Assembly (NCBI GenBank): GCA_913045445.1 | Contig: CAJWQP010000001.1 | Coordinates: 7,397 to 71,396 of the forward strand | Source: an uncultured Nitrospina sp. | Lineage (GTDB): Bacteria > Nitrospinota > Nitrospinia > Nitrospinales > VA-1 | Length of the DNA stretch: 64,000 nucleotides | Direction of reading: 5' to 3' | Shown: positions 4,137 to 31,167 of the stretch, in pieces | Layout of the letters: each line of letters begins with the position of its first letter | Numbering within the stretch: the stretch's first letter is position 1 | Made by a program: the position numbers and the translations under genes | Notes under the pieces: model-generated | What the model was told of the DNA's origin: nothing | Database searches by the model: none | What the model saw: only the letters and a program-made list of their open reading frames with translations

Positions 4137-4153
4137 GTAAAGCGTTTAACGGG

Positions 4154-5147: not shown

Positions 5148-5208
5148 TATTAGGAGATAGGGAGATTTGGCCACATCTGAAGATGTCACCTGAAATAGAG
5201 ATTCCAAT

Positions 5209-8028: not shown

Positions 8029-8076
8029 AGGGCCGGTTCAGTCAGATTCTCCATATTGGGAAAGGTGCGATAGATC

Positions 8077-8367: not shown

Positions 8368-8460
8368 TAGGGCAACTCCTGCCCTCCACTCATTAAAGCT
8401 TTGGGGTAGGCTGGACGGGCCTTCAGGTTTGCGAACAAGCAAGGCTAAAGCCTTGCCCTA
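8368..8460. repeat. Palindromic intergenic element bounded by TAGGGCAA / TTGCCCTA
   Basis: 8-bp terminal inverted repeats at 8368-8375 and 8453-8460, with internal hairpins AGGGCA/TGCCCT (8369-8385) and GCAAGGC-TAAA-GCCTTGC (8439-8456). It has no T-run, so it is not a classical terminator. Confidence 0.4.
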
Positions 8461-8470
8461 CCGCCGCTGG

Positions 8471-9235: not shown

Positions 9236-9304
9236 TGATCCTAAAGGGATGCACCGACTCTCTTCAGAGTCGCCGGGGTTCTTGTTGGCTACAGTTCGAC
9301 ATTA

Positions 9305-10198: not shown

Positions 10199-10534
10199 TG
10201 AACTTTTAGAATCTTTATCCACTTAAAACCATCTTTAATAGGTGTCTGGAAAAAAGTGGCTCCCTGAGAACAGAGGCTGTTTAAACACATGGCCAAAATT
10301 CATTGTAAATAACGGTCTTCCTTCCTGTCAAGGGAGCAGAAGAGGCAGGGCAGGTCTTTCAATACAACACCACTGAACCGACACCCCTCCAGCCTGTCTT
10401 TTAAACTCAGAGGAGTGGAGGCCAAGGTTTATTATAAGTAGAATCGATTAACATCGTATTTGTACCAGATTGGATAATTGTGATACATTGTGTTCCTTCA
10501 ACCGTAACTTTTTCGTAAAACTTAGGAGAATAAA

Positions 10535-11122
10535 ATGGCAACATTAGTTTCAAAACCTGCGCCCGATTTTGAAGCTCAGGCAGTAATGCCCGACGGTTCA
10601 TTCAAGCAAATAAAGCTTTCCGACTTTAAAGGAAAATATGTGGTTTTATTTTTCTATCCTCTTGATTTTACATTTGTCTGTCCCACAGAGATCATTGCGT
10701 TCAGTGACCAGCAGGGAGAGTTTGAGAAACGAAATACCCAGGTGCTGGGCGTTTCGATTGACAGTCATTTTTCCCATCTGGCCTGGAGGAATACTGATCG
10801 CAAAACAGGTGGATTGGGCGAGATAAAATATCCACTGGTTGCCGATCTCAATAAACAGATATGCAAAGATTACGACGTGCTGGCGGATATGGGAATCGCG
10901 TTTCGCGGACTATTCCTGATCGACAAAGACGGCGTGGTACAGCATCAGCTCGTCAACAACCTGCCTTTGGGCAGGAATATTGGCGAAGCTTTGCGTATGG
11001 TCGATGCACTGCAGTATCATGAAGAGCATGGCGAAGTGTGTCCCGCCAACTGGAAAGAGGGATCAGATGGGATGAAAGCCGACCCCAAAGGATCGCAGGA
11101 ATATTTCAATAAACACAATTAA
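10535..11122 (+). CDS. ahpC: Typical 2-Cys peroxiredoxin (AhpC/Tsa family)
   Basis: Peroxidatic Cys in 'FTFVCPTEI' and resolving Cys in 'EVCPANW'. 195 aa. Confidence 0.9.
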
Positions 11123-11180
11123 TTTGTAGCATTAAAGTTCTTTGGGTGGTTTGTCGGGCCCTCGAGCGAAATTTGAAAAT

Positions 11181-11214
11181 CCCACGGGCGGAAACGTCCG
11201 TGGGCCTTTTTTTT
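11181..11214 (+). terminator. Intrinsic terminator after the peroxiredoxin gene
   Basis: Stem CCCACGGGCG / CGTCCGTGGG with a GAAA loop, followed by a run of 8 T that ends at the surE ATG. Confidence 0.8.
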
Positions 11215-11970
11215 ATGATTGTTTTATGCAATGACGACGGTTTCAGTGCCGATGGAATCCGCACTATCTATAAAGAGCTATCCAGAATAGCCGAGGTGGT
11301 GATAGTCGCTCCAGAGACCGAGCAGAGCGCAATGGGTCATGCCATCACGTTGACCCAGCCGCTCAAAGTGCGCAAAGTGGTTGAAGGAGGGAAGTTCATG
11401 GGTTACGCCGTCAACGGAACCCCGGCAGACTGTATTAAAATTGCCACCACCGTACTTTTTGACCAGGCCCCTGAAATGGTGGTTTCAGGTGTCAACCTGG
11501 GAGGAAACCTGGGCACCTGCGCCATCTATTCCGGTACCGTATCCGCCGCAACTGAAGCCACGATAGAAGGAATTCCTGCCATAGCTGTATCTCTAAATAC
11601 CTTTGAGAATCCCAATTTTGCATTTGCTGCCGAATTTGGTGCCAGACTCGCAGGGATGGTTTTAGAGAAAGGTTTGCCAGAGGGAGTGGCGCTGAACGTG
11701 AATGTGCCCGCTGTTCCCCGGTCAGAAATCAAGGGAGTGGCTGTTACCCGGCAGGGAAAATCCCGCGTGGTGGAAACTTTCGATAAGCGGGTTGATCCCA
11801 GAAATAATACATACTACTGGATGGCCGGGGAGATGCGCTTTGATGAAGTCGATGATAAGGCAGATTGTTTTCAGGTTTCAAATAACCATATTTCTGTTAC
11901 GCCGATTCATTTTGATCTCACCAGTTATAAAACAATAGAGGAACTGAAAGGCTGGGATTTTTCTCTTTAG
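11215..11970 (+). CDS. surE: 5'/3'-nucleotidase SurE
   Basis: Begins 'MIVLCNDDGFSADGI', the canonical SurE N-terminus. The track ORF opens earlier, at GTG 11146, and reads through the terminator hairpin. Confidence 0.85.
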   Translation: MIVLCNDDGFSADGIRTIYKELSRIAEVVIVAPETEQSAMGHAITLTQPLKVRKVVEGGKFMGYAVNGTPADCIKIATTVLFDQAPEMVVSGVNLGGNLGTCAIYSGTVSAATEATIEGIPAIAVSLNTFENPNFAFAAEFGARLAGMVLEKGLPEGVALNVNVPAVPRSEIKGVAVTRQGKSRVVETFDKRVDPRNNTYYWMAGEMRFDEVDDKADCFQVSNNHISVTPIHFDLTSYKTIEELKGWDFSL

Positions 11971-12025
11971 TTTTGGGTTGATAATCATAAAGTGAGTTCC
12001 TCGTTTATGAGTCGGGCAACTACAA

Positions 12026-12070
12026 TAAAAAAAGGCCGATGAGCAAACGCTCATCGGCCTTTCTGTTTTT
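12026..12070. terminator. Bidirectional intrinsic terminator between surE (+) and pnp (-)
   Basis: Stem GGCCGATGAG / CTCATCGGCC with an A-run upstream and a T-rich tract downstream. Confidence 0.8.
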
Positions 12071-12093
12071 GTAGTAAAGAGGAATGCTCGTCT

Positions 12094-14193
12094 TTATACC
12101 TTGACTTCCGAAGTGCTGTCTTTCAAGGCTTCTTTTCGGCTGAGCTTTACTTTCCCCTGTTGGTCCACATCAATGACCTTCACTTTGATTTCATCACCTT
12201 CCGAGATTTCATCAGAGACGCTTTTGATACGTCTGTCGCAAATCTGGGAAATGTGAACGAGGCCATCCGTTCCCGGGAAGATTTCTACAAAGGCACCAAA
12301 GTCGACAATTTTCTTAACCTTGCCGAGATATACTTTGCCAATTTCCACTTCCTGGGTGAGATTGTCAATGTACTCGATGGCCTTGTCTGCCGCGGCCTGA
12401 TCAGACGATGCAATAGAAACCAGACCGCTGTCATCGATATCGATGCTGACGCCGGTTTTGTCGATGATTTCACGAATGACTTTGCCGCCTGGGCCAATGA
12501 TATCGCGAATCTTGTCGGTCGGTACTTTCATGGTGATGATTCTGGGAGCGTGCTTGGATAATTCAGCTCGCGGCTCATCCAGAGCTTTAGCCATTTCGCC
12601 CAGAATATGAAGTCGCCCTTCCTTTGCCTGTTGCATGGCCCTTCCCATCAAATCCTTATCCAGTCCGCCAATCTTGATATCCATTTGCAGGGCAGTGATT
12701 CCATCTTTTGTTCCTGCTACCTTGAAATCCATATCACCGAGATGATCTTCCGATCCCAGGATGTCAGACAGAATAGCGACATCATCACCCTCTTTGATAA
12801 GGCCCATGGCAATTCCCGCAACCGGGTTCGCTATGGGAACACCCGCATCCATCATGGCCAGTGAGCCGCCACATACAGAGGCCATCGAAGACGATCCGTT
12901 GGATTCCAGAATGTCAGAGACGATGCGGATGGTGTATGGGAACTTTTCTCTATCCGGCAGTACAGGAATCAGAGCACGTTCGGCCAGCATACCGTGACCA
13001 ATTTCTCTTCGTCCAGGACCTCCGATAAATTTGGTTTCCCCGGTACAGAAGGCGGGGAAGTTATAGTGCAGGTAAAAATGCCTGACGCCTTTGAACTCCA
13101 GTGTGTCAATGCGTTGTTCATCCGCGTTGGTGCCCAGAGTGGCGCTTACCAGTGCTTGTGTTTCTCCACGGGTGAAAACGGATGATCCGTGAACCCGGGG
13201 AAGGTAACCCATCTTGATGCTGATGGGACGCACTTCATTGAGAGCTCGTCCATCAACGCGCTTCTGGTTTTCTATAATCATTTTGCGCACGACATCTTTT
13301 TCCGCGTCATGAAACAGATTGCCAAGAGTTCCTTTAAGAGCATCATCGCCTTCCGGGTTGACCTCGGCATCCATGTCACTTTTAATTTCACTCACAGCAT
13401 TCGCTCGCTCATGTTTGCCAGTGATTTGCATGGCTTCATTGAGTTTTGAGCAAACGAGGCTATTGACCCGGTCTACAAGAGCGCCATCAATTTCTTCTTT
13501 CACCACGACCGCTTTTTCTTTATTGATTTTTTCTTTGAGCTGAATTTGCAGGTCGATCAGTTTTTTGATTCGCTCATGTCCAAACTCCAAAGCGGCCATC
13601 ATTTCATCTTCGCTGGCTTCCTTGGCGCCCGCTTCGACCATGACGATTCCATCTGCGGTTCCAGCCATGAGAAGTTGGATATCGCTTTCTTTACTTTCTT
13701 CATGGTTGGGATTAAATACGAAGTTGCCGTCAACTCGACCAATTCTTGCTCCCGCTATTGGGTTGTCAAAAGGTATATCAGAAATCATCAAAGCGGCAGA
13801 GGCGCCCGTCAAAGCAATGATGTCCGCAGGGTTGACCTGATCGTGGGAAATAACGAAGCAGACCAGTTGTGTTTCGTTACGGAAACCGTCCGGAAACAGT
13901 GGGCGGATAGGCCTGTCGATCAGTCGGCATGTAAGGGTTTCATAGTCGCTCGGTCGAGCTTCCCTTTTAAAGAATCCACCAGGGATTTTCCCGGCGGCGT
14001 AAGTTTTTTCCCTGTAATCTACTGTGAGAGGGAAAAAATCTATTCCCTCCCTTGGTTTTGGCGCCATAGTGGCCGCCACCAGTACCATGGTTTCACCTTG
14101 TGATACAACCACAGAACCCCCGGCTTGTCGTGCCAGATCGCCTGCTTCTAAAGATATAGTTTTCCCGTCAAGTTCTATTTCTACTCTTTCCAT
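12094..14193 (-). CDS. pnp: Polyribonucleotide nucleotidyltransferase (PNPase)
   Basis: 699 aa with two RNase PH domains followed by KH and S1 domains ('GKVYLGKVKKIVDFGAFVE'). Confidence 0.97.
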   Translation of the reverse strand: MERVEIELDGKTISLEAGDLARQAGGSVVVSQGETMVLVAATMAPKPREGIDFFPLTVDYREKTYAAGKIPGGFFKREARPSDYETLTCRLIDRPIRPLFPDGFRNETQLVCFVISHDQVNPADIIALTGASAALMISDIPFDNPIAGARIGRVDGNFVFNPNHEESKESDIQLLMAGTADGIVMVEAGAKEASEDEMMAALEFGHERIKKLIDLQIQLKEKINKEKAVVVKEEIDGALVDRVNSLVCSKLNEAMQITGKHERANAVSEIKSDMDAEVNPEGDDALKGTLGNLFHDAEKDVVRKMIIENQKRVDGRALNEVRPISIKMGYLPRVHGSSVFTRGETQALVSATLGTNADEQRIDTLEFKGVRHFYLHYNFPAFCTGETKFIGGPGRREIGHGMLAERALIPVLPDREKFPYTIRIVSDILESNGSSSMASVCGGSLAMMDAGVPIANPVAGIAMGLIKEGDDVAILSDILGSEDHLGDMDFKVAGTKDGITALQMDIKIGGLDKDLMGRAMQQAKEGRLHILGEMAKALDEPRAELSKHAPRIITMKVPTDKIRDIIGPGGKVIREIIDKTGVSIDIDDSGLVSIASSDQAAADKAIEYIDNLTQEVEIGKVYLGKVKKIVDFGAFVEIFPGTDGLVHISQICDRRIKSVSDEISEGDEIKVKVIDVDQQGKVKLSRKEALKDSTSEVKV

Positions 14194-14214
14194 TCAATTG
14201 TCTCCAAAAGTCGA

Positions 14215-14484
14215 TTAGCGTCTGATTCCCAGACGTGAAATGATTTGCTGATACCGGTTGACATCTTCTTTTCTAAGATGGTCCAGTAGTTTTCGTCGTC
14301 GGCTTACGATTTTTAGCAGTCCCTGTCTGGAATGATGGTCCTTGTTGTGGGATCTGAAGTGCTCGGTAAGATAGTTAAGCCGATTGGTTAAAAGTGCGAT
14401 TTGCACCTCCGACGAGCCGGTATCGCTGTCGTGCAGTTTATAATCGGAAATGACTGTTGTTTTCGCTTCCTTGGTAGATGACAT
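14215..14484 (-). CDS. rpsO: 30S ribosomal protein S15
   Basis: 89 aa with '[23 protein letters not shown]'. It lies immediately upstream of pnp. Confidence 0.97.
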
Positions 14485-14626
14485 TATCCTTATCCTCTTA
14501 GGTTAAAAGCAAGAGAACGATTGAAAAATGTTTTCGCAGGAGAACTATCGCCATGACACCCGCCTGAGGTTGTCATATAATTCTTCTGCGAAAACATTCC
14601 AATCACTTTTCTTGCTAAAAAATAGT

Positions 14627-15568
14627 TCAACACAATACACGTTTAGGTTTAAATACAATATCTTCCGGTGCCATGCCGGGCAGTGTGTCTTGATCGACCA
14701 CAGGTTCGACAACAGCGAGTATCTCGTTGTTGCCGCCAAAAACCCGGAAATAGTGTCCCGGTTCAAATCGGTCGGGAAGAGTCTCTATAAATGATTTTGA
14801 AAGTGCTACCCCATGGGAGATTGATTCGAGGTATTCCTCTTTCACGCGGATCGCCGGAAGAAAATTGAGCGCTTCTTCCCAGGGAATGAGCTTGCCAGGC
14901 AGGCTACCATCGTCTTTCGCGACTTCTAACGCTTCCAGACTCAGGGCACGTTCCAAATCGAACGGTCCAACCTGAGTTCGGGTCAGCCGGACCATATGCG
15001 CGTAACACCCCAACTTTCTACCAATATCATGGGACAGTGTGCGTATATAGGTTCCGGCGGAACAATGCACTTCAAATAAAACCTGAGTTCCTTCCTTCTT
15101 TATAAAATCAATTGAATAAACAACAATTTTTACGGGTTCTCTGACGATATTAATACCATTTCTGGCCAATTTGTAAAGAGGAATTCCATTTTTCTTTTTT
15201 GCGGAGTACATTGGGGGAACCTGGTCCTGTTCACCCATAAATGCTTGTAAAGCTTGTTTAATTTGATTTTCGGTGACGCTTGAAGGGTCGCCGGTGGCCA
15301 GAACCTTTCCTGTGGCGTCCTGAGTGTCTGTCTCAGACCCCAGTTCGAGTGTCGCGCGGTAAGTTTTTCGTAATGGCGATAAAAACTGGATTATACGGGT
15401 GGACCGATTGAGGCATATCGGAAGTACCCCCTCGGCCATAGGGTCAAGAGTTCCGATATGCCCGGCTTTTTTGATGCCGAGAATCTTTCTGACCGACCAG
15501 ACCATATCAAAGGATGTCGGCCCGACAGGCTTAAACAGGTTGATAATGCTATTCTGAATTGAAGTCAT
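14627..15568 (-). CDS. truB: tRNA pseudouridine(55) synthase
   Basis: Catalytic 'GHIGTLDPMAEGVLP' and a PUA-like C-terminus. Sits in the rbfA-truB-rpsO context. Confidence 0.93.
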   Translation of the reverse strand: MTSIQNSIINLFKPVGPTSFDMVWSVRKILGIKKAGHIGTLDPMAEGVLPICLNRSTRIIQFLSPLRKTYRATLELGSETDTQDATGKVLATGDPSSVTENQIKQALQAFMGEQDQVPPMYSAKKKNGIPLYKLARNGINIVREPVKIVVYSIDFIKKEGTQVLFEVHCSAGTYIRTLSHDIGRKLGCYAHMVRLTRTQVGPFDLERALSLEALEVAKDDGSLPGKLIPWEEALNFLPAIRVKEEYLESISHGVALSKSFIETLPDRFEPGHYFRVFGGNNEILAVVEPVVDQDTLPGMAPEDIVFKPKRVLC

Positions 15569-15893
15569 TGATAATTTTGTTTATTTTGGCAACATGCTCA
15601 GCCGTCCCGTCTAATATGAATTCCAATACCGGGATATACCGGAGAGAAAGCTTTTTCCCCAAGGCACCTCTGATGAATCCTGATGCACGGGTCAACCCCT
15701 CTATGGTGTCTTTTTGTTCCCGCTCAGTGCCAAAGACGCTGATATAAACTTTCGCGTGTTTTAAGTTATCGCTTAGATTTACTTTTGTCACCGTGGCAAA
15801 CCCGATTCGCGGGTCCTTCAAACCTCTTTGAATAAGAGCCGAGATTTCTTCCAGAAGCAGTTCTTGAACTCTCTCTGATCGCTTGAACCGCAT
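15549..15893 (-). CDS. rbfA: Ribosome-binding factor A
   Basis: 114 aa with 'RVQELLLEEISALIQRGLKDPRIGFATVT'. It follows infB. Confidence 0.9.
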   Translation of the reverse strand: MRFKRSERVQELLLEEISALIQRGLKDPRIGFATVTKVNLSDNLKHAKVYISVFGTEREQKDTIEGLTRASGFIRGALGKKLSLRYIPVLEFILDGTAEHVAKINKIINDFNSE

Positions 15894-15916
15894 GGTATTG
15901 TCCTTATAGACCCGGT

Positions 15917-20922: not shown

Positions 20923-20958
20923 AAAAAACCAAAAAAAAATGCGGGGCTTAGCCCGCAT
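20923..20958 (-). terminator. Intrinsic terminator downstream of proS
   Basis: On the minus strand, the ATGCGGG/CCCGCAT stem is followed by a run of about 9 U and then GGUUUUUU. Confidence 0.75.
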
Positions 20959-21049
20959 TCCTAGCAGGACCTGAATTTTCGGCTAAATTCTACTAAAACG
21001 GGGCGGGAGTTGCAAGCGAAACTTTTTTCTTTATAGGGAGTTATCAGAA

Positions 21050-22759
21050 TTACAACTCAGCGAGAATCTCTGGAACTGTGGAGATTTCTTCCGGAAACGA
21101 GATGAGTTTCGACTCGCCCGTTTTTCTTGATTTCAGCTCTACTTTTCCTTCGTCAAGATTTTTTGGACCAATTATTATCTGTAGTGGGATGCCAAGTAGT
21201 TCCGCGTCCTTGAATTTTACACCCAGTCGGTCTGACCGATCATCGAGCAGGGTTTCCACACCCTGTTCCCAGAGAGTTTTATAGATTGTTTCTGCCGCCG
21301 AGCGAACTGCATCCACTTTAAAGTTAACTGGCAGGATAACCGCTTGAAAAGGGGCTAGTGGAAGTGGCCAGATTATTCCTTTTTCGTCATAGTTCTGTTC
21401 AATGGCGGCGGCGGCGGTCCGTCCGACACCTATACCATAACAACCCATGATCATGGGTTTCTCTTTACCCTGATCATCCAGATAGTGGGCTTTCATGGCT
21501 TCGCTGTATTTTGCTCCGAGTATGAAAATATGACCCACTTCGATACCCCGTTTGATTTTATATTTTCCAGAATCGCATTTGGGGCAACGGTCTCCCTCGT
21601 TGATGTCTCTGAGGTCACCCACTTTTTCGACCTTCAGGTCTCGTCCAAATTGAACGCCGGTCAAATGGGTATCGGCCTTGTTTGCTCCGGTGATGCCGTT
21701 GGACATATGCGTAATTTCTGTGTCGGCGAAAACTTTAAGTTGCGTGCCAACGGGTCCCAGGTATCCGCAAGGTACCCCGGTCTCTTTTGTGATGAGTTCT
21801 TCTGGTGCGGGATTGAGCCATTCACAATCGATCAGGTTTTTCAGTTTGACGGGGTTGATTTCCCGGTCGCCACGGACGAGCCCTGCAACCAGCCCTTGAT
21901 CAGTTTCAAAGACAATAGTTTTTATGAGTTTATCGGAAGACACATTGAGGAACTGAGTGACTTCTTCCACAGACTTCTTCCCGGGGGTGGAGACTTCTTT
22001 TATATCTTCTTCTGATGTTGACTCGCTGTTTGGTTTTGCGGCTCTGGCCTCAGCCTTTTCAAGATTAGAGGCATAATCGCATGAATCGCAGAATCCGATA
22101 CGGTCTTCGCCGGAGTCTGCAAGCACAACGAACTCATGGGAGAAACTTCCGCCTATAGTGCCGCTGTCTGCTTCCACCATTTTAAAGTCGAGGCCGCATC
22201 TTTCAAAGATTCGGGAATAGGCTTCGGCCATTTGTGAATAAGTTTCGCGTGTACTTTCCTCGGTGGTATGAAAGCTATAGGCATCTTTCATTGTAAATTC
22301 GCGACCACGCATGATGCCGAAACGCGGCCTGACTTCATCGCGGAATTTGGTTTGAATCTGGTACAGGGTGATGGGTAGTTGACGGTAGGAATGAACGTCA
22401 CGGCGTACTATGTCGGTGATGATTTCTTCGTGAGTCGGCCCATAGCAAAATTCGCGATCATGCCGGTCTTTTAAGCGTAAAAGTTCCTTTCCATAAAATT
22501 CCCAACGACCACTTTCTTCCCACAATTCGGCGGGCTGGACGCTGGGCAGGAACACTTCCTGTCCTCCTATCCGGTTCATTTCCTCTCGAACGATCTGTTC
22601 GACTTTCTTGAGCACTCGCAGTCCGAGTGGGAGGGTAGAATAGATACCGGCGGCCATTTGGCGGATCATCCCCGCGCGGACCATGAGTTTATGGCTGATC
22701 ACCTCAGCGTCTGCAGGTGACTCTTTCAGTGTGGGAATCAGTATTTTTGAGTAGTACAT
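21050..22759 (-). CDS. proS: Proline--tRNA ligase (bacterial type with editing insertion)
   Basis: 569 aa with class II motifs ('FRDEVRPRFGIMRGREF', 'GCYGIGVGR') and an INS domain. Confidence 0.97.
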   Translation of the reverse strand: MYYSKILIPTLKESPADAEVISHKLMVRAGMIRQMAAGIYSTLPLGLRVLKKVEQIVREEMNRIGGQEVFLPSVQPAELWEESGRWEFYGKELLRLKDRHDREFCYGPTHEEIITDIVRRDVHSYRQLPITLYQIQTKFRDEVRPRFGIMRGREFTMKDAYSFHTTEESTRETYSQMAEAYSRIFERCGLDFKMVEADSGTIGGSFSHEFVVLADSGEDRIGFCDSCDYASNLEKAEARAAKPNSESTSEEDIKEVSTPGKKSVEEVTQFLNVSSDKLIKTIVFETDQGLVAGLVRGDREINPVKLKNLIDCEWLNPAPEELITKETGVPCGYLGPVGTQLKVFADTEITHMSNGITGANKADTHLTGVQFGRDLKVEKVGDLRDINEGDRCPKCDSGKYKIKRGIEVGHIFILGAKYSEAMKAHYLDDQGKEKPMIMGCYGIGVGRTAAAAIEQNYDEKGIIWPLPLAPFQAVILPVNFKVDAVRSAAETIYKTLWEQGVETLLDDRSDRLGVKFKDAELLGIPLQIIIGPKNLDEGKVELKSRKTGESKLISFPEEISTVPEILAEL

Positions 22760-22854: not shown

Positions 22855-24591
22855 TTAACTGTTAGACAGGAAGCGGTTGGCGAGTTCAATGTCTTCAGCA
22901 CGATGAATTTCCAGCCAGCCTTTGTGGATTTCCAAAAAATGGATCGCGTAACCTCTATCGATCATTTCCTGAATCAGGTCGGTGAGTTTGAATCGGGTGA
23001 TATCGTCCGATTCCTGAAACTTGCCATGGTAGTTTTTTGCGCAGTCTTCATAGGTTTGCAGAAACTGCTCCGCTCCTGTTTTGGTGAATTTTGCGAGACC
23101 TGTGAATTCGTGGGTGGCTGTTTCCGGATTCAGTTTGGAACCTATCTTGGAAATAATGTTTTCGCATACAAAGCTGATTTTTCTACGCGTGGGGTGATGT
23201 TTGTTTTTACTGATAACAAAATCCTGTACCTTGTTTTCTTCTGGCGCATGGTACTGAATAGTATTGTCCACTACAAGAACGATGTCTTCCTTGCAGGTGA
23301 GCAGTTTTGCCAATATGTGATCTTCGAGCAGGATGTCGGAATAGAGCATGATGAATCCGTTTGCCATCTTTTCCTGAGCGCCTATCAGGCTGTGTAGTTC
23401 GGAGCCTTTTTTATAATTTGTGTTTTCACGCAGGGTGACCCCTTCGGCTTTCATCTTGTCGCTAGCGTAGCCCGTGACCACGGTGATGTCTGCCAGGTTA
23501 TTGTTGTTGAGTGTGCTTGTTTGCCAGTTGAGAAGGGTTTTCCCCGCTATTTCCAGCATGGGTTTGGGTTTCCCGTTCAAGGCCGAGCCCAGTGTCGAGT
23601 CTTCTCCGGCGGCAGGAATAATGACGGGGATATTTGTGTTGTTTTCATCGAGCTTGTCTTTTTCTTTAACATCCAGAAATCCGACTGTTCTGAAAATTTC
23701 GCGGACGGGAGAACAAACTGGATCGACTTCGAATGACCGTTGGTTGAGGAGGATGGTGCGCGCAATTTCTTCCATCACCTTGTAGGCGCCTCTTAGCAAG
23801 TGGTTGGCGTATATGATGATGCGAAACCCGGCTGTCCGCAGTTCGTCCTCGGTCATTGTGTTATAGGTTGTCGGCACACACACCATGGGTTTATCAATTT
23901 TCATTTCCTGTATCATTTTCTGGTAGCGTTCAGCGAACTCCATGATTTGGGCTGGATCTTTTTCTTTGGAGTGGATCATCACTCCATCGGCTCCTGCTTC
24001 CAGGTAGGTTCGTGCTCTACTGAGCGCATCATCGACACTTTTCCCGGCGATCAGGCTTTCCAGTCGGGCGATGATCATAAAGTCGTTCGATATCTGAATA
24101 CTTTTCCCTCGGCGGATCTTCTGGGCAAATACTTCAGGCTCCTGAAGGGTTTGCTGGACACCGGCCTCAAGGCTGTTTCGCTTGGGAAAAACTTTGTCTT
24201 CTATGATGACGGCGGAAACTCCTGCTCGCTCAAGTTTGGTCACCATGTATTCAAAACTATTCGCGTCGCCTCCAGTGTCACCATCGACAATCATTGGCTT
24301 ATGAGTGACGGCCAGAATTTCATTGATCGATTGAAGTCTTGAGTCAAAGCTGATCACTTCTATGTCGGGATGTCCTTTGGAGGCGGAGTCGGTAAGACTG
24401 CTTTCCCATATTGCATCGAATTCTCTTTGGACGGATAATTCATCGGCTTGCCCTTCGACCCGTGTGTTATTAGCAATGATACCGCTCAGTCCGTTATGGG
24501 CTTCCAGTACGCGCACTGTTTTCCCGTCATCAAGAATCGCTTTTAATCTGGCGCGACGTGCTTCGGGAAGGATGTTGTTCAATAAGGTCAT
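22855..24591 (-). CDS. pepM: Phosphoenolpyruvate mutase fused to a LicC/PntC-like nucleotidyltransferase
   Basis: The N-terminal ~290 aa belong to the isocitrate-lyase/PEP-mutase superfamily and carry the PepM-diagnostic 'EDKVFPKRNS' (EDKx5NS). The C-terminal ~280 aa begin 'VIIPAAGEDSTLG...KPKPMLEIAGKTLL', a nucleotidyltransferase fold. Confidence 0.85.
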   Translation of the reverse strand: MTLLNNILPEARRARLKAILDDGKTVRVLEAHNGLSGIIANNTRVEGQADELSVQREFDAIWESSLTDSASKGHPDIEVISFDSRLQSINEILAVTHKPMIVDGDTGGDANSFEYMVTKLERAGVSAVIIEDKVFPKRNSLEAGVQQTLQEPEVFAQKIRRGKSIQISNDFMIIARLESLIAGKSVDDALSRARTYLEAGADGVMIHSKEKDPAQIMEFAERYQKMIQEMKIDKPMVCVPTTYNTMTEDELRTAGFRIIIYANHLLRGAYKVMEEIARTILLNQRSFEVDPVCSPVREIFRTVGFLDVKEKDKLDENNTNIPVIIPAAGEDSTLGSALNGKPKPMLEIAGKTLLNWQTSTLNNNNLADITVVTGYASDKMKAEGVTLRENTNYKKGSELHSLIGAQEKMANGFIMLYSDILLEDHILAKLLTCKEDIVLVVDNTIQYHAPEENKVQDFVISKNKHHPTRRKISFVCENIISKIGSKLNPETATHEFTGLAKFTKTGAEQFLQTYEDCAKNYHGKFQESDDITRFKLTDLIQEMIDRGYAIHFLEIHKGWLEIHRAEDIELANRFLSNS

Positions 24592-24593
24592 GT

Positions 24594-24893
24594 TCAGTTT
24601 CCTATGTTGCTGTCAGGCTCAAGACGCTCTCTAATCCATGAGGGCAGGTAAATATCTTCCATGTCGAATTTTTTCAGGGTTTGGAGAATGACTTCATTCT
24701 GCTCTTCGATTGATAGAAGGTTATCAAGAATTATCATCTTTTTACCTTTTACTTTGCAATAGCCACTTTGAATCATAATCTCCGGATCAAACAAACTGTC
24801 GGTCACTATCTCAATTGAAAGCTTGTTTGCGGCTTCTTTCAGATCTTCCAGTTGGGATAGCGGATCCATCACAGGCACCGGATTGATTGTCAA
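24594..24893 (-). CDS. Hypothetical 99-aa protein, translationally coupled to pepM fusion
   Basis: Its TGA stop lies 2 nt before the pepM ATG, and an AGGA sits inside its 3' end. I recognise no family. Confidence 0.5.
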   Translation of the reverse strand: MTINPVPVMDPLSQLEDLKEAANKLSIEIVTDSLFDPEIMIQSGYCKVKGKKMIILDNLLSIEEQNEVILQTLKKFDMEDIYLPSWIRERLEPDSNIGN

Positions 24894-24916: not shown

Positions 24917-26284
24917 TTAATTAATAATTCGCATTATGTCATTGTAGAAGGCGAACACCATCAGACTGATCAACATGAACAGCCCCACCTGTTGCGCGCG
25001 TTCCCGGTTCATCTCGCTCACAGGCCGTCCTTTGATCATCTCTATCAGGAAAAAGAAAATATGTCCTCCATCGAGAATGGGGATTGGGAGTAGATTGATC
25101 AGCCCCAAGTTGATGCTTAACAGGGCTGTGAGCCTGATGAATTCGCTAAAACCCTGTTCGGCTTGTTCTCCGTAAATTTGAAAGATCAGGATGGGGCCGC
25201 CAATCTGGTCTGCCGGGATTGAACCGAAGATCATTTTCTGGACGCTGATCGCGATCAAAGAGGTCATTTTCCAGGTTTCTTTGATGGATCGCACGATGGA
25301 ACCCAACAGGCCGTATTGCTCGAGCACCATTTTACCGCTCATTCCTACACCGATTTCTCCGATCTTTAATTCCTTACCCTCGCTGTCCCTAACTATTTTG
25401 GGTGTAGTGGTGAGGGGAACCAGAATTTCGGTGCCGTTGCGTCCGATTTTAAAAACCAGTGGCACTCCAGGTTCATCCACAGCGGCAGGTCTAAGATCTG
25501 TCCAGCCGAATATAGGAGTGTTTCCCACGGCCATGATGCGGTCATTGAGTTGAAGTCCAGCTTTTTCGGCGGCACTGCCTTTTTTGATATAGGTGATGGT
25601 ATTTACCAGCGGGGTGATGCCGATGAGACCCACTTGCTGACTGTCACCAAAAGGATCTTTGATCTCCTCCGCTATTGGAGTGATTTTAATATTTACAATT
25701 TGACCAGACTGACGCTCTACCTGAAAATCGAGTTCTTTGCCGGGTGAGTGGTAAACCTTGTTTTGCAACTCGTCCCAGAGCCGGATCGATTTTCCTCCGA
25801 CGGCAATAATCTGATCACCTGTCTGAAGTCCAGCCACCTGGGCGGGTGAATTTTCCTTTACGGTGCCGATGACAGGACTGAGGGCTTCCACCCCGCCCAT
25901 ATAGACAAATATATAAATCGCCAATGCGAACAGAATATTGAAAAGTGGACCGGCAAAAGCTATGAGGAGACGGTGTGACGGCAGAGCGGCTGAAAATGAA
26001 CCTTCTTCATTTGTTTCTTCATCCAGTTCCTCTCCTTTCATTTTGACGTAGCCGCCTAATGGGATGGCGGCAACGATATATTCGGTTTCACCTCGTGTCG
26101 TGCCAAATATTTTTTTTCCGAATCCGATTGAGAATTTTTCAACAACAACACCGCATCTGCGGGCGGCAAGAAAATGGCCCAACTCGTGAACAAAGATGAG
26201 CGCGGCCAGGCCAATCAGAAATGCTAGCATCTTACCGCCAAAGGCGGCTACTGCACTTAAGGATAGTGTGGAGAGTTCAAACAT
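24917..26284 (-). CDS. rseP: RIP metalloprotease RseP (site-2 protease)
   Basis: 'HELGHF' zinc motif, two PDZ domains, and a C-terminal membrane domain with 'NLLPIPILDGG'. Confidence 0.9.
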   Translation of the reverse strand: MFELSTLSLSAVAAFGGKMLAFLIGLAALIFVHELGHFLAARRCGVVVEKFSIGFGKKIFGTTRGETEYIVAAIPLGGYVKMKGEELDEETNEEGSFSAALPSHRLLIAFAGPLFNILFALAIYIFVYMGGVEALSPVIGTVKENSPAQVAGLQTGDQIIAVGGKSIRLWDELQNKVYHSPGKELDFQVERQSGQIVNIKITPIAEEIKDPFGDSQQVGLIGITPLVNTITYIKKGSAAEKAGLQLNDRIMAVGNTPIFGWTDLRPAAVDEPGVPLVFKIGRNGTEILVPLTTTPKIVRDSEGKELKIGEIGVGMSGKMVLEQYGLLGSIVRSIKETWKMTSLIAISVQKMIFGSIPADQIGGPILIFQIYGEQAEQGFSEFIRLTALLSINLGLINLLPIPILDGGHIFFFLIEMIKGRPVSEMNRERAQQVGLFMLISLMVFAFYNDIMRIIN

Positions 26285-28974: not shown

Positions 28975-31167
28975 TTATTGTTGTTGTGCGCTGATCAGGG
29001 TTTTGAGAAGCCCTATGTTTTGGGTGTGTCCTGATTTATGGGCATGGATGTGTCCGCGAATGGGTCTTCCCAGCAGGTAAAAATCCCCGAGTATGTCTAA
29101 AATTTTATGCCGGGGAAACTCATTTTCAAATCGTAACTGAGTGTTGATGACTTTGCCGTCACCAAGTAATATGAAATTGTCCAGTTTGCCGCCCGAGGCG
29201 AACCCCATTTTTGTTAGTTGCGCGACATCCTGCATGAATCCAAATGTACGTGCGGGAGCAATTTCTTTTTTGAAGCTTTCCTCATCTTTATACTCGAAGG
29301 TGTGGTCCATAACTCCTATCGGAGCAGGATATTCCATGTGGTAGCTCACCTTGAACGTATCGCAAGGTTCAATGCTGATATGAGGTTCTCCATTTTCTTT
29401 GGACCCGAAGGTATAGGTCTTGTCGATGATGAGTTCCTGATAAAATTCATCTTGATCTTCAAACTCCCCGTCCTCTATTAATTCACAGAAGTCCTTTGCC
29501 GAACCATCCATGACCGGAACCTCATCTCCTATTTTTATAAGCAGGTTGGTTATGCGATACATGTGAAGAACAGCCATTATATGTTCTATGGTGGCAACGC
29601 TGGACCTTCCTTTTCGCAGTGAGGTGGAATAATCGGTGGACATGATGTTTTCAATGCGAGCCGGAATGGTTTGTCCGCTGGAGATGTCACCAAAGATAAT
29701 ACCGCTCCCCGGTGGAAGAGGTTGCAGGATCAGGCCTGTTTTGATTCCGAGGTGGAGTCCGCTTCCGCACAACACCATACTCCGCTTGAGAGTTCTTTGA
29801 GGAAAACTGTGGTTATCGTCTTTAGACTCCTTGCTGGGGAATTTGATTCCGTGAGTTTCTATTTTCTCCATGAACATGTCTTTGTCGACTTTCAGGGCCT
29901 TGCTTGTTTTCCTGGCATCCCAGTTGTTCTTTTTCAGGTGATGCAGGAGGTAATCTTTTTCCCAGTGTTGCTCGGCTTCTTTGAGTGACTCGAACTTTTC
30001 GAGGTTCACGGTTTTAAACTGGTCTTCTGCCTGTCTGATTTCTGGAGGAATTTCACTGAGAGAAATATTTTCTCTTGAAGGCGCTGTTGCAATGATGCGA
30101 TCGAGAACTGAGCGAAGCTCTCTAATGTTTCCCGGCCAACTGTAACGGCATAAGGCATCCAGCGCCGCTGAATCTACTTGAGGAGCGGACAGTCCATCCT
30201 TCTGCGCAATTTCTTCAAGATAATCACGGGTCATCATCGGAATATTGGATGAGTTTTCTCGCAAGGGAGGGATATGGATAGTGCTATCTCTGAAAGTTTT
30301 CAGCAGATCGGTGTTGAATTGGCCGTTTTTTGCCAGTTCATGGAGGTCTTTAGAAGATGAGATATACAGGCGCGAGGGTAAAAGTTGTTTTGTTCCCGCT
30401 TGCATGGCATTGAATAATTTTTCCTGCATCACTTTAGTGAGTGCGTCTACATTATCCAGAAATATTATTCGCGATGTGCCAGTGGTTGACTTTGTATTGG
30501 AGTTTTTGTTCTCACTTGCACGGCCTTTTTTTGATCCTGGGAACAAAGAGGATTGGATTTCATGCATTCGTCTTGCGGCGCAATTGATTTTTATGAAGGG
30601 AAGTCTGCTTTGGGGACTCTGATTGTGTATGGCTTGAGCGATGAATTCTTTGCCTGTCCCCGCTTCGCCTAGAAGGAGTATGGGATTGTTAGATTGTGAA
30701 TGGGTTTTGATGGCTTTTTTTATTTCCACCAATGCGGCGAAGCCCATTGGCGCTTCATTGCTATTAGTTAAATGATTATCTGATTTTGCTGAAAAATTCT
30801 TTTTTACTTTGAAGACGCTCTGTACGGACTGGGTCAGGAGGTCCATCGAAAATGGCTTTTCGATGAAGTCATAAGCCCCAAGTTTTGTCGCCTTGACCGC
30901 AGTATCGATAGTGCCGTGCCCGGACATGATAAGCACTTCGATGTTAGGGTGATAGGTTTTAACCGTTTTTAAAACTTCTATTCCATCCATGCCCGGAAGC
31001 CAGATATCAAGCAAAAGCAGGTCGGGTGGATCTGACTGAATTATGTCCAGTGCATCGAGTCCGTCATCGGCCACAGAGACATCGTAGCCTTCATCTGCCA
31101 GAATTCCTCTGAGGGAGCTTACGATGTTTTTTTCATCATCAACAATTAAAATTCGTTCTTGAGGCAA
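28975..31167 (-). CDS. lpxC: Fusion protein: receiver domain + degenerate sigma54-type AAA+ + Fis-like HTH + UDP-3-O-acyl-GlcNAc deacetylase (LpxC)
   Basis: Uninterrupted 730-aa ORF. REC motifs are 'IVDDE', 'LLLLDIW' and 'KPF'. The AAA+ module has 'GEAGTGKE' and 'WPGNIRELRS' but lacks GAFTGA, and Walker B reads 'FLDNVD'. The LpxC part runs from 'QRTLKRSMVLCGSGLHLG' and includes 'ATIEHI', 'ARTFGF', 'RHKILDILGDF' and 'HKSGH'. Confidence 0.85.
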   Translation of the reverse strand: MPQERILIVDDEKNIVSSLRGILADEGYDVSVADDGLDALDIIQSDPPDLLLLDIWLPGMDGIEVLKTVKTYHPNIEVLIMSGHGTIDTAVKATKLGAYDFIEKPFSMDLLTQSVQSVFKVKKNFSAKSDNHLTNSNEAPMGFAALVEIKKAIKTHSQSNNPILLLGEAGTGKEFIAQAIHNQSPQSRLPFIKINCAARRMHEIQSSLFPGSKKGRASENKNSNTKSTTGTSRIIFLDNVDALTKVMQEKLFNAMQAGTKQLLPSRLYISSSKDLHELAKNGQFNTDLLKTFRDSTIHIPPLRENSSNIPMMTRDYLEEIAQKDGLSAPQVDSAALDALCRYSWPGNIRELRSVLDRIIATAPSRENISLSEIPPEIRQAEDQFKTVNLEKFESLKEAEQHWEKDYLLHHLKKNNWDARKTSKALKVDKDMFMEKIETHGIKFPSKESKDDNHSFPQRTLKRSMVLCGSGLHLGIKTGLILQPLPPGSGIIFGDISSGQTIPARIENIMSTDYSTSLRKGRSSVATIEHIMAVLHMYRITNLLIKIGDEVPVMDGSAKDFCELIEDGEFEDQDEFYQELIIDKTYTFGSKENGEPHISIEPCDTFKVSYHMEYPAPIGVMDHTFEYKDEESFKKEIAPARTFGFMQDVAQLTKMGFASGGKLDNFILLGDGKVINTQLRFENEFPRHKILDILGDFYLLGRPIRGHIHAHKSGHTQNIGLLKTLISAQQQ

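What the first reader, a model, noticed from the sequence alone, without database searches (positions are those of the whole stretch)
22855..24591. PEP mutase-nucleotidyltransferase fusion embedded in a housekeeping operon with no coupling enzyme in the window
The N-terminal half carries the EDKx5NS signature ('EDKVFPKRNS'), which distinguishes true PEP mutases from other isocitrate-lyase-superfamily enzymes. The C-terminal half is a LicC/PntC-like nucleotidyltransferase ('VIIPAAGEDSTLG...KPKPMLEIAGKTLL').

The PepM equilibrium strongly favours PEP. Phosphonate pathways therefore normally encode a pulling enzyme next to pepM, usually phosphonopyruvate decarboxylase followed by an AEP transaminase or a dehydrogenase.

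Here the gene sits between rseP/orf99 and proS, inside a ~15-kb co-directional array of translation and envelope genes. I see no TPP-dependent decarboxylase, phosphonate-type aminotransferase or phosphonate transferase anywhere in the window.

PepM plus a cytidylyltransferase implies nucleotide-activated phosphonate, and so phosphonate-decorated lipid or glycan. The position next to rseP and lolA is suggestive of the envelope. The missing partner steps are the open question.
Basis: partly seen in the sequence, partly recalled or inferred. Interest (0 to 1): 0.6.

Follow-up and report, generated by a model that had tools for sequence, protein, structure and literature searches.

The report
Scattered aminoethylphosphonate pathway in Nitrospinales
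The gene is a genuine PEP mutase fused to a LicC/PntC-like domain. Its "missing" partner enzymes are encoded elsewhere in this marine nitrite-oxidiser genome, so it is an ordinary aminoethylphosphonate pathway with an unusually scattered, vertically inherited layout.

Summary
A 578-aa ORF on the minus strand (22855-24591) is a true PEP mutase: TIGR02320 scores 353.6 bits against a cut-off of 319.55, and EDKVFPKRNS is present. It is fused to a PF12804 LicC-like domain. This is the commonest published PepM architecture (Rice 2019), so the fusion itself is not new.

The "missing partners" exist, unlinked, in the same 2.3-Mb Nitrospinaceae MAG:
- a two-subunit phosphonopyruvate decarboxylase on contig C111;
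- an AepZ-type AEP aminotransferase on contig C3.

The order orf99-pepM-proS is conserved in all 8 other genomes checked, from four families of the order. In two independent lineages pepM is cleanly deleted from this locus, and the decarboxylase and aminotransferase are missing too.

No LicD was found. Two CDP-alcohol phosphotransferase paralogues track pepM. One has the full catalytic motif. The other sits in an Spt/GNAT/SDR ceramide-like operon. A related genus has such a transferase next to its AEP aminotransferase. An AEP-lipid is therefore the likeliest product, but this is inferred.

One caveat is new. The fused domain lacks the GXG(T/S)R arginine. All 15 PepM-fused representatives sampled lack the motif, against 39 of 54 stand-alone homologues that keep it. 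Its cytidylyltransferase activity is unproven.

Verdict: a new member of a known kind, of moderate interest.

The parts
22855..24591 (-). pepM-NT gene: 578-aa fusion of PEP mutase and a LicC/PntC-like nucleotidyltransferase-fold domain
   Evidence: ORF listing and translation; Pfam and NCBIfam scans
23686..24546 (-). PEP mutase domain (residues 16-302)
   Evidence: TIGR02320 scores 353.6 bits, above its 319.55 cut-off. The own-genome hit at C1:31082-31942 corresponds to window 23686-24546. Best solved-structure matches are the PEP mutases 5UNC and 1M1B.
24172..24201 (-). EDKVFPKRNS, the PepM-specific EDKx5NS motif (residues 131-140)
   Evidence: The motif definition is from Rice 2019. It is identical in all 8 other Nitrospinales orthologues aligned.
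24427..24471 (-). Lineage-specific insertion of about 14 residues in the PepM domain (roughly residues 41-55, NNTRVEGQADELSV)
   Evidence: Present in all Nitrospinales orthologues. Absent from the G001 PepMs and from PDB PepMs (alignments).
22858..23634 (-). LicC/PntC-like nucleotidyltransferase-fold domain (residues 320-578)
   Evidence: PF12804 at 33.9 bits. LicC 1JYK is the best solved-structure match, E 4e-6. The 50%-identity library holds 2516 homologues at E<=0.001, both PepM-fused and stand-alone.
23554..23613 (-). Non-canonical nucleotide-binding loop AAGEDSTLGSALNGKPKPML (residues 327-346). The second Gly of GXG(T/S)R is Asp and the Arg is Thr; the PK lysine is kept.
   Evidence: HMMER alignment to LicC; alignments; motif census; consensus and mutant data from Rice 2019
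24594..24893 (-). orf99: small conserved ORF of unknown function whose stop codon lies 2 nt before the pepM start
   Evidence: Sequence. No Pfam or NCBIfam hit. Conserved upstream of pepM in 8 of 8 genomes. Kept in G008, which has lost pepM, so it is not pathway-specific.
24917..26284 (-). rseP (M50 site-2 protease), upstream neighbour
21050..22759 (-). proS, downstream neighbour, 95 nt after the pepM stop
20935..20962 (-). The strongest terminator-like hairpin on this strand (11-bp stem followed by a T-run), between proS and rimP. It is the probable 3' end of a lolA-rseP-orf99-pepM-proS transcription unit.
   Evidence: This is a consensus scan only; transcription was not tested.

Best explanation
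The gene encodes the first enzyme of a complete but genomically scattered 2-aminoethylphosphonate (AEP) pathway. The pathway is an ancestral, vertically inherited trait of the order Nitrospinales.

Proposed steps:
1. The N-terminal domain isomerises PEP to phosphonopyruvate. That it is a PepM is shown by sequence.
2. The unfavourable equilibrium is pulled by a two-subunit TPP-dependent phosphonopyruvate decarboxylase encoded on another contig (C111:1021-2062). This is inferred from homology and from co-occurrence and co-loss with pepM.
3. An AepZ-type class-V aminotransferase (C3:26157-27323) converts phosphonoacetaldehyde to AEP. The basis is the same.
4. The fused C-terminal LicC/PntC-like domain is the only member of that subfamily in the genome, so it most likely makes CMP-AEP. 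Its G-loop lacks the conserved arginine, so this step is the weakest (about 55%).
5. A CDP-alcohol-phosphotransferase-family membrane enzyme transfers AEP to a lipid alcohol, giving a phosphonolipid. The best candidate is the 297-aa protein on C94, which has the full catalytic motif. A 293-aa paralogue closes an Spt / GNAT / NDUFA9-like SDR ceramide-type operon on C123, which suggests a ceramide-AEP in some lineages. This step is inferred (about 50%).

pepM is probably co-transcribed with lolA, rseP, orf99 and proS, because of the tight spacing and because the only strong terminator follows proS. That would make it constitutively expressed like a housekeeping gene.
For: PepM identity:
- TIGR02320 scores above its cut-off.
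- EDKx5NS is present, and the equivalents of Mytilus D58, D85, D87, E114, K120, N122, S123, R159 and H190 are conserved in the alignment to 1M1B.

Partner enzymes:
- Decarboxylase: 182 + 127 bits to the Ppd model across two adjacent ORFs. The best solved-structure match is 9IZ3_B, 'putative phosphonopyruvate decarboxylase beta subunit', 131 bits. Both subunits are 41% identical to a fused Ppd that lies directly next to pepM in genome G001.
- Aminotransferase: TIGR03301 scores 360.2 against a cut-off of 360.8. The best solved-structure match is the aminotransferase domain of Tde1415, 242 bits.
- No phosphonatase is present, so the aminotransferase is not half of a catabolic PhnW-PhnX pair.

Phyletic pattern in 120 genomes of the phylum:
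- True PepM is in 89 genomes; 86 of these also have the decarboxylase.
- AepZ orthologues at 56% identity or more are in nearly all of them.
- Genome G054 (97% complete) and genus g14 (G008, G009) lack all three genes. In G054 rseP abuts proS. In G008 orf99 abuts proS. These are two independent clean deletions.
- Most other 'PepM-negative' genomes of the order simply lack this locus in the assembly.

Conserved locus and scatter:
- orf99-pepM-proS is conserved in 8 of 8 genomes from four families.
- In closed genomes the three genes lie 20 kb to 1.4 Mb apart.

Transfer step:
- LicD is absent.
- Orthologues of the C94_297 and C123_293 transferases are absent from G054, G008 and G009 and present in most PepM-positive genomes.
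- In genus g10 a CDP-OH transferase gene overlaps the AEP aminotransferase gene and lies near a fused Ppd.
- Published precedent: the Burkholderiales 'CDP-OH' phosphonolipid clusters, and the sphingophosphonolipid producer Bacteriovorax stolpii, whose Ppm is fused to PF12804.
Against: - HMM scores cannot separate the decarboxylase from sulfopyruvate decarboxylase ComDE. Both score alike and below cut-off.
- The aminotransferase sits 0.6 bit under its curated cut-off.
- Three genomes of family f7 have homologues of the decarboxylase (51-53% identity) and/or the aminotransferase (45% identity) but no PepM hit.
- The fused NT domain lacks the GXG(T/S)R arginine, whose mutation cut Tde-PntC activity to under 10%. 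In relatives even the PK lysine can be lost: G020 and both G001 copies.
- C123_293 and all 120 of its homologues have Gly in place of the fourth Asp of the CDP-alcohol phosphotransferase motif.
- Three PepM-positive genomes of genus g16 and G055 have neither transferase paralogue.
- The genome is a 151-contig MAG, so assigning the short contigs C111, C94 and C123 to this organism rests on binning. Orthologues in closed relatives (G073, G037) do support it.
- No expression or chemical data could be obtained.
Confidence: 0.72

Rival explanations
1. The pathway exists as described, but the fused NT-like domain is not a cytidylyltransferase. It would be a non-catalytic domain that binds nucleotide or has a regulatory or scaffolding role, or an enzyme with another substrate. 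AEP would then be activated by a different nucleotidyltransferase, or not activated at all.
For: - GXG(T/S)R is 'GEDST' here.
- In 50%-identity representatives, 0 of 15 PepM-fused domains keep GxGxR and only 5 of 15 keep PK. Among stand-alone homologues of about 250 aa, 39 of 54 keep GxGxR and 48 of 54 keep PK.
- Within Nitrospinales the loop residues vary (EDS, EDP, RAP, SAP, DTS), and the Lys is lost in G020.
- In the three experimentally studied clusters (O. uli, A. rimae, T. denticola), the characterised PntC is a separate gene that coexists with a ppm-fused domain. The Burkholderiales clusters likewise carry two 'PntCs'.
- The genome has 13 other NT-fold genes.
Against: - The domain is under purifying selection: 56-69% identity across families, against 69-75% for the PepM domain.
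- It keeps AAG, the PK lysine and the invariant acidic residues of YSD and GWxE.
- No second member of this subfamily exists in the genome.
- A lipid route through a CDP-alcohol-type transferase chemically requires CMP-AEP.
Confidence: 0.35
2. The phosphonate ends up on a glycan, LPS or protein rather than on a lipid. This would be a phosphonoglycan or phosphonoglycoprotein, as in Bacteroides fragilis or Prochlorococcus SB.
For: - About half of PepM pathways are thought to decorate glycans or lipids.
- The gene sits in an operon with the envelope genes lolA and rseP, near lpxC.
- The CDP-OH link is by association only.
Against: - No LicD-type transferase is present in a genome that is 95.7% complete.
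- CDP-alcohol transferase paralogues track pepM.
- In genus g10 such a transferase is directly adjacent to the AEP aminotransferase.
- The neighbours rseP and lolA stay in place when pepM is lost.
Confidence: 0.2
3. pepM is an orphan. The unlinked decarboxylase is a sulfopyruvate decarboxylase and the aminotransferase is a general class-V enzyme. The apparent co-loss reflects general genome reduction. Phosphonopyruvate would be consumed by some other, unknown enzyme, or PepM would work in reverse.
For: - The ComDE and Ppd HMMs score equally.
- G054 is a reduced 1.7-Mb genome.
- Family f7 has the decarboxylase and the aminotransferase without PepM.
Against: - Genus g14 is not reduced (2.3-3.0 Mb at 71-79% completeness), yet lacks all three genes.
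- The SDR gene beside the decarboxylase survives in the PepM-negative genomes while the decarboxylase is gone.
- The best solved-structure matches are a Ppd beta subunit and the AEP aminotransferase of Tde1415.
- The subunits are 41% identical to a pepM-adjacent Ppd.
Confidence: 0.08

Closest known systems
Ppm fused to a PF12804 (MobA-like NTP transferase) domain, the commonest PEP mutase architecture (Rice et al. 2019, Nat Commun 10:3698, PMC6697681). One example is the Bacteriovorax stolpii cluster GCF 761 (Li & Horsman 2022, PMC8942020).
   Same: Same two-domain order, PepM then PF12804, with the EDKx5NS motif. The same AEP logic applies (Ppm, Ppd, AEP aminotransferase). B. stolpii makes a sphingophosphonolipid, which parallels the ceramide-type operon found here.
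   Different: Published examples are gene clusters. Here pepM sits alone between rseP/orf99 and proS, and Ppd and the aminotransferase are 20 kb to more than 1 Mb away. The layout is conserved across a whole order. The Nitrospinales PepM also carries an insertion of about 14 residues.
PntC cytidylyltransferases Tde1415 (PDB 6PD1/6PD2) and Ari1348, and S. pneumoniae LicC (1JYK)
   Same: The nucleotidyltransferase family is the same (PF12804 above its gathering score; LicC is the best solved-structure match). The PK lysine and conserved acidic residues are present.
   Different: These enzymes carry GXG(T/S)R with a functionally important Arg15. The domain here reads GEDST. They are not fused to Ppm: Tde1415 is fused to the aminotransferase and Ari1348 is stand-alone. 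phmmer does not retrieve Tde1415 with the NT domain at E<=1.
Burkholderiales 'CDP-OH' phosphonolipid gene-cluster families (Group 1 phosphonolipids; Yu et al. 2013; Li & Horsman 2022)
   Same: Ppm-NT fusion, Ppd, AEP aminotransferase and CDP-alcohol-phosphatidyltransferase-family genes occur together, pointing to a phosphonolipid.
   Different: Those are seven-gene clusters with a second stand-alone PntC and an alpha-ketoglutarate dioxygenase (for 1-hydroxy-AEP). Neither was found here, and the genes are dispersed. No product has been characterised in either case.
Fom1 of fosfomycin biosynthesis (cytidylyltransferase-PepM fusion)
   Same: PepM is fused to a cytidylyltransferase that acts on a later pathway intermediate. 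This shows such fusions can be bifunctional.
   Different: The Fom1 domain is N-terminal, belongs to PF01467 and acts on hydroxyethylphosphonate. It serves an antibiotic pathway, not an envelope one.

Membership tests
PEP mutase (PepM/Ppm, TIGR02320) | Scores above the curated equivalog cut-off and better than sister families of the isocitrate-lyase superfamily | tested here: met
   353.6 bits against a cut-off of 319.55. Phosphonopyruvate hydrolase scores 161, methylisocitrate lyase 106 and carboxy-PEP mutase 50, all far below their own cut-offs.
PEP mutase (PepM/Ppm, TIGR02320) | EDKxxxxxNS motif | tested here: met
   EDKVFPKRNS at residues 131-140.
PEP mutase (PepM/Ppm, TIGR02320) | Mg2+ and substrate residues of the Mytilus enzyme (D58, D85, D87, E114, K120, N122, S123, R159, H190; S46-G47-L48) | tested here: met
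   The alignment to 1M1B gives D76, D103/D105, E131, K137, N139, S140, R176 and H207 as conserved. Only G47 differs: the S-G-L triplet reads S-S-L. The residue roles come from my own knowledge of the Mytilus structures.
PEP mutase (PepM/Ppm, TIGR02320) | Catalyses PEP to phosphonopyruvate | not testable with these tools
   Needs an enzyme assay.
LicC/PntC-type cytidylyltransferase (PF12804) | Pfam family membership and LicC-like sequence | tested here: met
   PF12804 scores 33.9 bits against a gathering score of 27. LicC 1JYK is the best solved-structure match, E 4e-6.
LicC/PntC-type cytidylyltransferase (PF12804) | GXG(T/S)R part of the GXG(T/S)RX4-8PK signature (Arg15 of Tde-PntC; the Ala mutant keeps under 10% activity) | tested here: not met
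   The loop reads AAG-E-D-S-T, so the second Gly is Asp and the Arg is Thr. 0 of 15 PepM-fused representatives keep the motif.
LicC/PntC-type cytidylyltransferase (PF12804) | Terminal PK lysine of the signature (Lys25) | tested here: met
   KPK343PML. Invariant in 34 close orthologues, but lost in G020 and in both G001 fusions.
LicC/PntC-type cytidylyltransferase (PF12804) | Predicted fold superposes on LicC/PntC | tested here: inconclusive
   The AlphaFold2 model from a shallow alignment (34 sequences, 72-100% identity) had mean pLDDT 53, and under 50 across the NT domain. No fold search was run on it.
LicC/PntC-type cytidylyltransferase (PF12804) | CTP + AEP gives CMP-AEP | not testable with these tools
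   Needs an enzyme assay. According to Rice 2019, the PntCs characterised so far are the non-fused ones.
Canonical AEP biosynthetic gene cluster (Ppm-Ppd-AEPT) | Phosphonopyruvate decarboxylase encoded in the genome | tested here: met
   A split alpha/beta pair at C111:1021-2062 scores 182 + 127 bits to TIGR03297, although the ComDE models score alike. The best solved-structure match is a split Ppd beta subunit. It is co-lost with pepM.
Canonical AEP biosynthetic gene cluster (Ppm-Ppd-AEPT) | AEP aminotransferase encoded in the genome | tested here: met
   C3:26157-27323 scores 360.2 on TIGR03301 against a cut-off of 360.8, i.e. at the threshold. The best solved-structure match is the Tde1415 aminotransferase domain. 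It is co-lost with pepM.
Canonical AEP biosynthetic gene cluster (Ppm-Ppd-AEPT) | The genes are clustered next to pepM | tested here: not met
   They lie on different contigs here, and 20 kb to 1.4 Mb apart in closed relatives. pepM is flanked by orf99/rseP and proS in 8 of 8 genomes.
CDP-alcohol phosphotransferase (PF01066) as the AEP-transferring enzyme | DxxDGxxARx8GxxxDxxxD motif | tested here: met
   C94_297 has DNVDGNLARVRGETSRMGRFLDSLTD, the complete motif. C123_293 and all 120 of its homologues have Gly at the last Asp position.
CDP-alcohol phosphotransferase (PF01066) as the AEP-transferring enzyme | Uses CMP-AEP as donor | not testable with these tools
   Only association is available: the phyletic pattern and adjacency to the AEP aminotransferase in genus g10.

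The most novel reading that the evidence does not exclude
This reading has two linked parts.

(1) Nitrospinales are globally abundant marine nitrite oxidisers. They would make AEP-headgroup lipids as a core, constitutively expressed envelope component: diacylglycerol-AEP and, where the Spt/GNAT/SDR operon is present, ceramide-AEP. That would make them an unrecognised dark-ocean source of phosphonates.

(2) The Ppm-fused PF12804 domain is found on about a third of all PEP mutases and is assumed to be a PntC. It would instead be a distinct subfamily that has lost the canonical GXG(T/S)R (and often the PK) signature. It would then work differently from PntC, for example as a regulatory nucleotide sensor or with an alternative catalytic arrangement.
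Probability: 0.35. Interest if true: 0.65.

Novelty: new member of a known kind. Interest (0 to 1): 0.45.

Why it matters
Genome mining for phosphonates assumes that pepM is clustered with its coupling enzyme, and it classifies pathways by the pepM neighbourhood. Here a whole bacterial order carries a complete AEP pathway whose genes are scattered, with pepM embedded in a housekeeping operon. Neighbourhood-based surveys would score it as an 'orphan' or 'unclassified' pepM.

Nitrospinota are the main nitrite oxidisers of the ocean. A constitutive phosphonolipid in them would add a mesopelagic source to the marine phosphonate budget and give a possible lipid biomarker.

Separately, the degenerate nucleotide-binding signature of PepM-fused NT domains questions a widely used annotation ('PntC fused to Ppm'). 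It is cheap to test biochemically.

Tried and rejected
- Structure prediction of the full protein. Only close orthologues were allowed into the alignment, and the model was poor (mean pLDDT 53, NT domain under 50). No fold search was run.
- LicD-type transferase: none in the genome.
- A second, stand-alone PntC of the same subfamily: none by tblastn. The other 13 PF12804-like hits are generic NT-fold proteins.
- The SDR gene next to the decarboxylase as a pathway member: rejected, because it is kept at 67-68% identity in genomes that lost pepM.
It is present in PepM-negative genus g14 and absent from PepM-positive G073.
- orf99 as a pathway member: rejected, because it is retained in G008 after the loss of pepM.
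- A pepM remnant in the G008 rseP-orf99 gap: none. The gap holds a small lipoprotein-like ORF on the opposite strand.
- Literature searches for Nitrospina, Nitrospinae or Nitrospinota together with phosphonate, pepM, sphingolipid or polar lipids found nothing that describes this pathway.
- Source names for relatives' proteins: none were available.
- A catabolic reading of the aminotransferase (PhnW-PhnX): no phosphonatase is present.
Full report
**Observation.** The reported interval holds one 578-aa ORF on the minus strand (22855-24591). Both quoted motifs are present: EDKVFPKRNS at residues 131-140 and VIIPAAGEDSTLG...KPKPML at residues 323-346. Pfam finds PEP_mutase (residues 17-281, 181 bits) and NTP_transf_3 (residues 324-443, 33.9 bits). 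The NCBIfam equivalog TIGR02320 'phosphoenolpyruvate mutase' scores 353.6 bits, above its 319.55 cut-off. Phosphonopyruvate hydrolase, methylisocitrate lyase and carboxy-PEP mutase score 161, 106 and 50 bits, far below theirs. The best solved-structure matches are PEP mutases (5UNC, 1M1B). In the alignment to the Mytilus enzyme, the equivalents of D58, D85, D87, E114, K120, N122, S123, R159 and H190 are all conserved; only G47 is Ser. It is a true PepM.

**Organism and context.** The window is contig C1:7397-71396 of a 2.3-Mb, 151-contig genome that is 95.7% complete. Close homologues come from Candidatus Nitromaritima, Nitrospina sp. and Nitrospinaceae/Nitrospinales MAGs. On the same strand lie truB, rbfA, infB, nusA, rimP, proS | pepM | orf99, rseP, lolA and a purN-like gene.
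- The orf99 stop codon is 2 nt from the pepM start codon.
- proS starts 95 nt after pepM.
- The only strong terminator-like hairpin on this strand follows proS, at 20935-20962.
- lolA-rseP-orf99-pepM-proS is therefore a plausible single transcript.

**The fusion is known.** Rice et al. 2019 (PMC6697681) found that about 60% of all EDKx5NS-bearing Ppm enzymes are fused to a nucleotidyltransferase domain, and 33% to PF12804 as here. The architecture is the commonest form of the enzyme.

**The 'missing' partners.** A whole-genome search with the phosphonopyruvate decarboxylase model finds two adjacent ORFs on contig C111 (1565-2062 alpha, 1021-1581 beta). Together they cover the model at 127 + 182 bits. 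HMM scores cannot separate them from sulfopyruvate decarboxylase ComDE. Two other lines favour Ppd:
- The best solved-structure match of the beta subunit is 9IZ3_B, deposited as a putative phosphonopyruvate decarboxylase beta subunit (131 bits).
- Both subunits are 41% identical to a fused Ppd that lies directly beside pepM in genome G001, from another order of the phylum.

An AepZ-type AEP aminotransferase lies at C3:26157-27323. It scores 360.2 bits on TIGR03301, against a cut-off of 360.8. Its best solved-structure match is the aminotransferase domain of T. denticola Tde1415, followed by PhnW enzymes. No phosphonatase is present, so it is not part of a catabolic pair. An earlier first-stage note on that other window had flagged the same aminotransferase as an orphan. 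The two 'orphans' explain each other.

**Comparative test across 120 genomes of the phylum.**
- True PepM occurs in 89 genomes: 85 over the cut-off plus 4 fragments. Almost all belong to the four families of the same order, and almost all sit in open frames of about 575-690 aa, i.e. fused.
- 86 of these 89 also carry the decarboxylase.
- Nearly all carry an AepZ orthologue at 56% identity or more.
- Families f6, f8 and f9 lack all three genes.
- Within the order there are two independent losses. G054 (97% complete) and genus g14 (G008, G009) lack PepM, the decarboxylase and the AepZ orthologue; only paralogues of about 27% identity remain.
- At the locus itself, G054 has rseP followed directly by proS. 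G008 has rseP, a small opposite-strand ORF, orf99, then proS. These are clean deletions of pepM.
- The other PepM-negative genomes of the order that I checked are assembly gaps. proS is missing (G040, G035, G036), cut by a contig end (G105, G038) or only 743 nt from a contig end (G065).
- orf99-pepM-proS is conserved in all 8 genomes sampled from four families. The wider order, from the LpxC-fusion gene to nusA, is the same in a relative at 72% identity.
- In closed genomes the three pathway genes lie 20 kb to 1.4 Mb apart.

The arrangement is therefore ancestral, vertically inherited and truly dispersed. It is not a recent insertion.

Two exceptions remain:
- Family f7 has the decarboxylase and/or the aminotransferase (51-53% and 45% identity) with no PepM hit. 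This is unexplained.
- Genus g10 and G039 carry a fused Ppd instead of the split type.

**The nucleotidyltransferase-like domain.** LicC (1JYK) is its best solved-structure match (E 4e-6). The family signature is GXG(T/S)RX4-8PK. In Tde-PntC, Ala substitution of Arg15, Lys25 or Lys153 leaves under 10% activity. Here the loop reads AAGEDSTLGSALNGKPKPML. The second Gly is Asp, the Arg is Thr, and the PK lysine is kept.

A search of the 50%-identity representative library gave 2516 homologues. Among those aligned over the loop:

| Class | n | GxGxR kept | PK kept |
|---|---|---|---|
| PepM-fused domains | 15 | 0 | 5 |
| Stand-alone proteins of about 250 aa | 54 | 39 | 48 |

Within Nitrospinales the residues after AAG vary (EDS, EDP, RAP, SAP, DTS), and the Lys is lost in G020 and in both G001 fusions.

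Even so, the domain is under purifying selection: 56-69% identity across families, against 69-75% for the PepM domain. It keeps the acidic residues of YSD and GWxE. No second member of the subfamily exists in this genome.

Rice et al. note that the PntCs they characterised (Oul593, Ari1348, Tde1415) are separate genes in clusters that also carry a ppm-fused domain. The Burkholderiales clusters also have two. As far as I could find, the activity of a Ppm-fused PF12804 domain has not been tested. I therefore treat 'AEP cytidylyltransferase' as the most likely function (about 55%) but not an established one. A structure prediction with the shallow alignment allowed to me was too poor to use (mean pLDDT 53).

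**Where the phosphonate goes.** LicD is absent. The genome has five CDP-alcohol phosphotransferase-family genes.
- One is PssA and is present in every genome tested.
- Two paralogues of about 295 aa, C94_297 and C123_293, have orthologues in most PepM-positive genomes but none in G054, G008 or G009.
- C94_297 has the complete DxxDGxxARx8GxxxDxxxD motif and follows a B12-binding radical SAM gene.
- C123_293 closes a four-gene operon: an Spt-like alpha-oxoamine synthase, a 373-aa GNAT-like protein, an NDUFA9/epimerase-type SDR, then the transferase. The full-length Spt-like orthologue scores 443 bits to serine palmitoyltransferase, against 377 for the BioF/Kbl family. The operon is conserved in G073 and G037.
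- This matches the Spt/bCerS/CerR ceramide cluster. That bCerS is a GNAT-family enzyme is my own recollection of Stankeviciute et al. 2022.
- C123_293 and all 120 of its homologues have Gly at the fourth Asp of the motif, so its chemistry is uncertain.
- The GNAT gene is absent from G054, G008, G009 and also from PepM-positive G024. A ceramide acceptor would therefore be lineage-specific.
- In genus g10 a further CDP-OH transferase gene overlaps the AEP aminotransferase gene, next to a B12 radical SAM gene, methyltransferases and a fused Ppd. This is direct gene-neighbour evidence in the same family.
- Published precedents are the Burkholderiales 'CDP-OH' phosphonolipid clusters and the sphingophosphonolipid of Bacteriovorax stolpii, whose Ppm is fused to PF12804.

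A CPT/EPT-type reaction that gives a C-P lipid head group needs CMP-AEP as donor. That in turn argues for an active cytidylyltransferase somewhere in the cell. All of this is inference. No chemistry is available, and I found no paper on phosphonates or sphingolipids in Nitrospinota.

**Rejected pathway candidates.** The SDR beside the decarboxylase, the 219-aa ORF after the aminotransferase, and orf99 all persist in genomes that lost pepM or are absent from genomes that have it.

**Verdict.**
It is a true PepM with a LicC-like domain and a probable envelope product.
- The central puzzle dissolves, because the coupling enzyme and the aminotransferase are encoded elsewhere.
- What remains of interest is threefold: the dispersed, order-wide, housekeeping-embedded layout; the prediction of AEP lipids in the ocean's main nitrite oxidisers; and the degenerate catalytic signature of PepM-fused NT domains.
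- Classification: a new member of a known kind, of moderate interest.

Noticed in passing
window 28975-31167 (-): One 730-aa ORF fuses an NtrC-type receiver domain and a sigma-54 AAA+ module (with lid) to LpxC (residues 457-725); no DNA-binding domain was detected by Pfam. It is the only LpxC in the genome. The same fusion is present in relatives at about 56-63% identity.
   Followed up: partly
window about 24427-24471 (-), residues about 41-55 of the PepM domain: All Nitrospinales PepM orthologues carry an insertion of about 14 residues after GLSGII. They also read S-S-L where other PepMs read S-G-L. Both features are absent from the G001 PepMs and from solved PepM structures.
   Followed up: partly
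G000 contig C111 (L005) 1021-5736: The split Ppd lies downstream of an SDR epimerase-like gene and pyruvate phosphate dikinase, a PEP-forming enzyme, all on one strand. The SDR-Ppd adjacency recurs in G037, but the SDR is kept in genomes that lost the pathway.
   Followed up: partly
L044 (G078:C1:670000-689999) 8091-15894: Genus g10 has a second phosphonate cluster. It holds a fused Ppd plus a methyltransferase and, on the other strand, a B12 radical SAM gene, a TylF-type methyltransferase, a CDP-OH transferase, a class-V aminotransferase, and further on an LPG_synthase_TM protein. This suggests a methylated AEP-type lipid head group.
   Followed up: partly
G000 contig C123 (L027) 3100-3981 and its 120 homologues: This is a CDP-alcohol phosphotransferase subfamily restricted to Nitrospinota-like sequences, in which the fourth Asp of the catalytic motif is always Gly. 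It always closes an Spt/GNAT/SDR ceramide-like operon.
   Followed up: partly
G000 contig C112 (L025) 97-2838: Two adjacent proteins of 442 and 411 aa have a C-terminal CDP-OH transferase domain (full motif) behind an N-terminal region of about 200 aa. The region looks like a degenerate nucleotidyltransferase, an IPCT/DIPPS-like architecture. They lie downstream of a TonB-like gene and are poorly conserved in relatives.
   Followed up: no
Genomes G108, G109, G110 (family f7): These genomes have homologues of the split decarboxylase (51-53% identity; G108, G110) and of the aminotransferase (45% identity; G108, G109), but no PepM-family hit at all, even in the 92%-complete genome G108. This is unexplained.
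   Followed up: no
L030 (G008:C182) 7404-8205: In the genome that lost pepM, the gap between rseP and orf99 holds a small opposite-strand ORF with a lipoprotein-like signal sequence (MRIAAIAALFLLTAC...).
   Followed up: no
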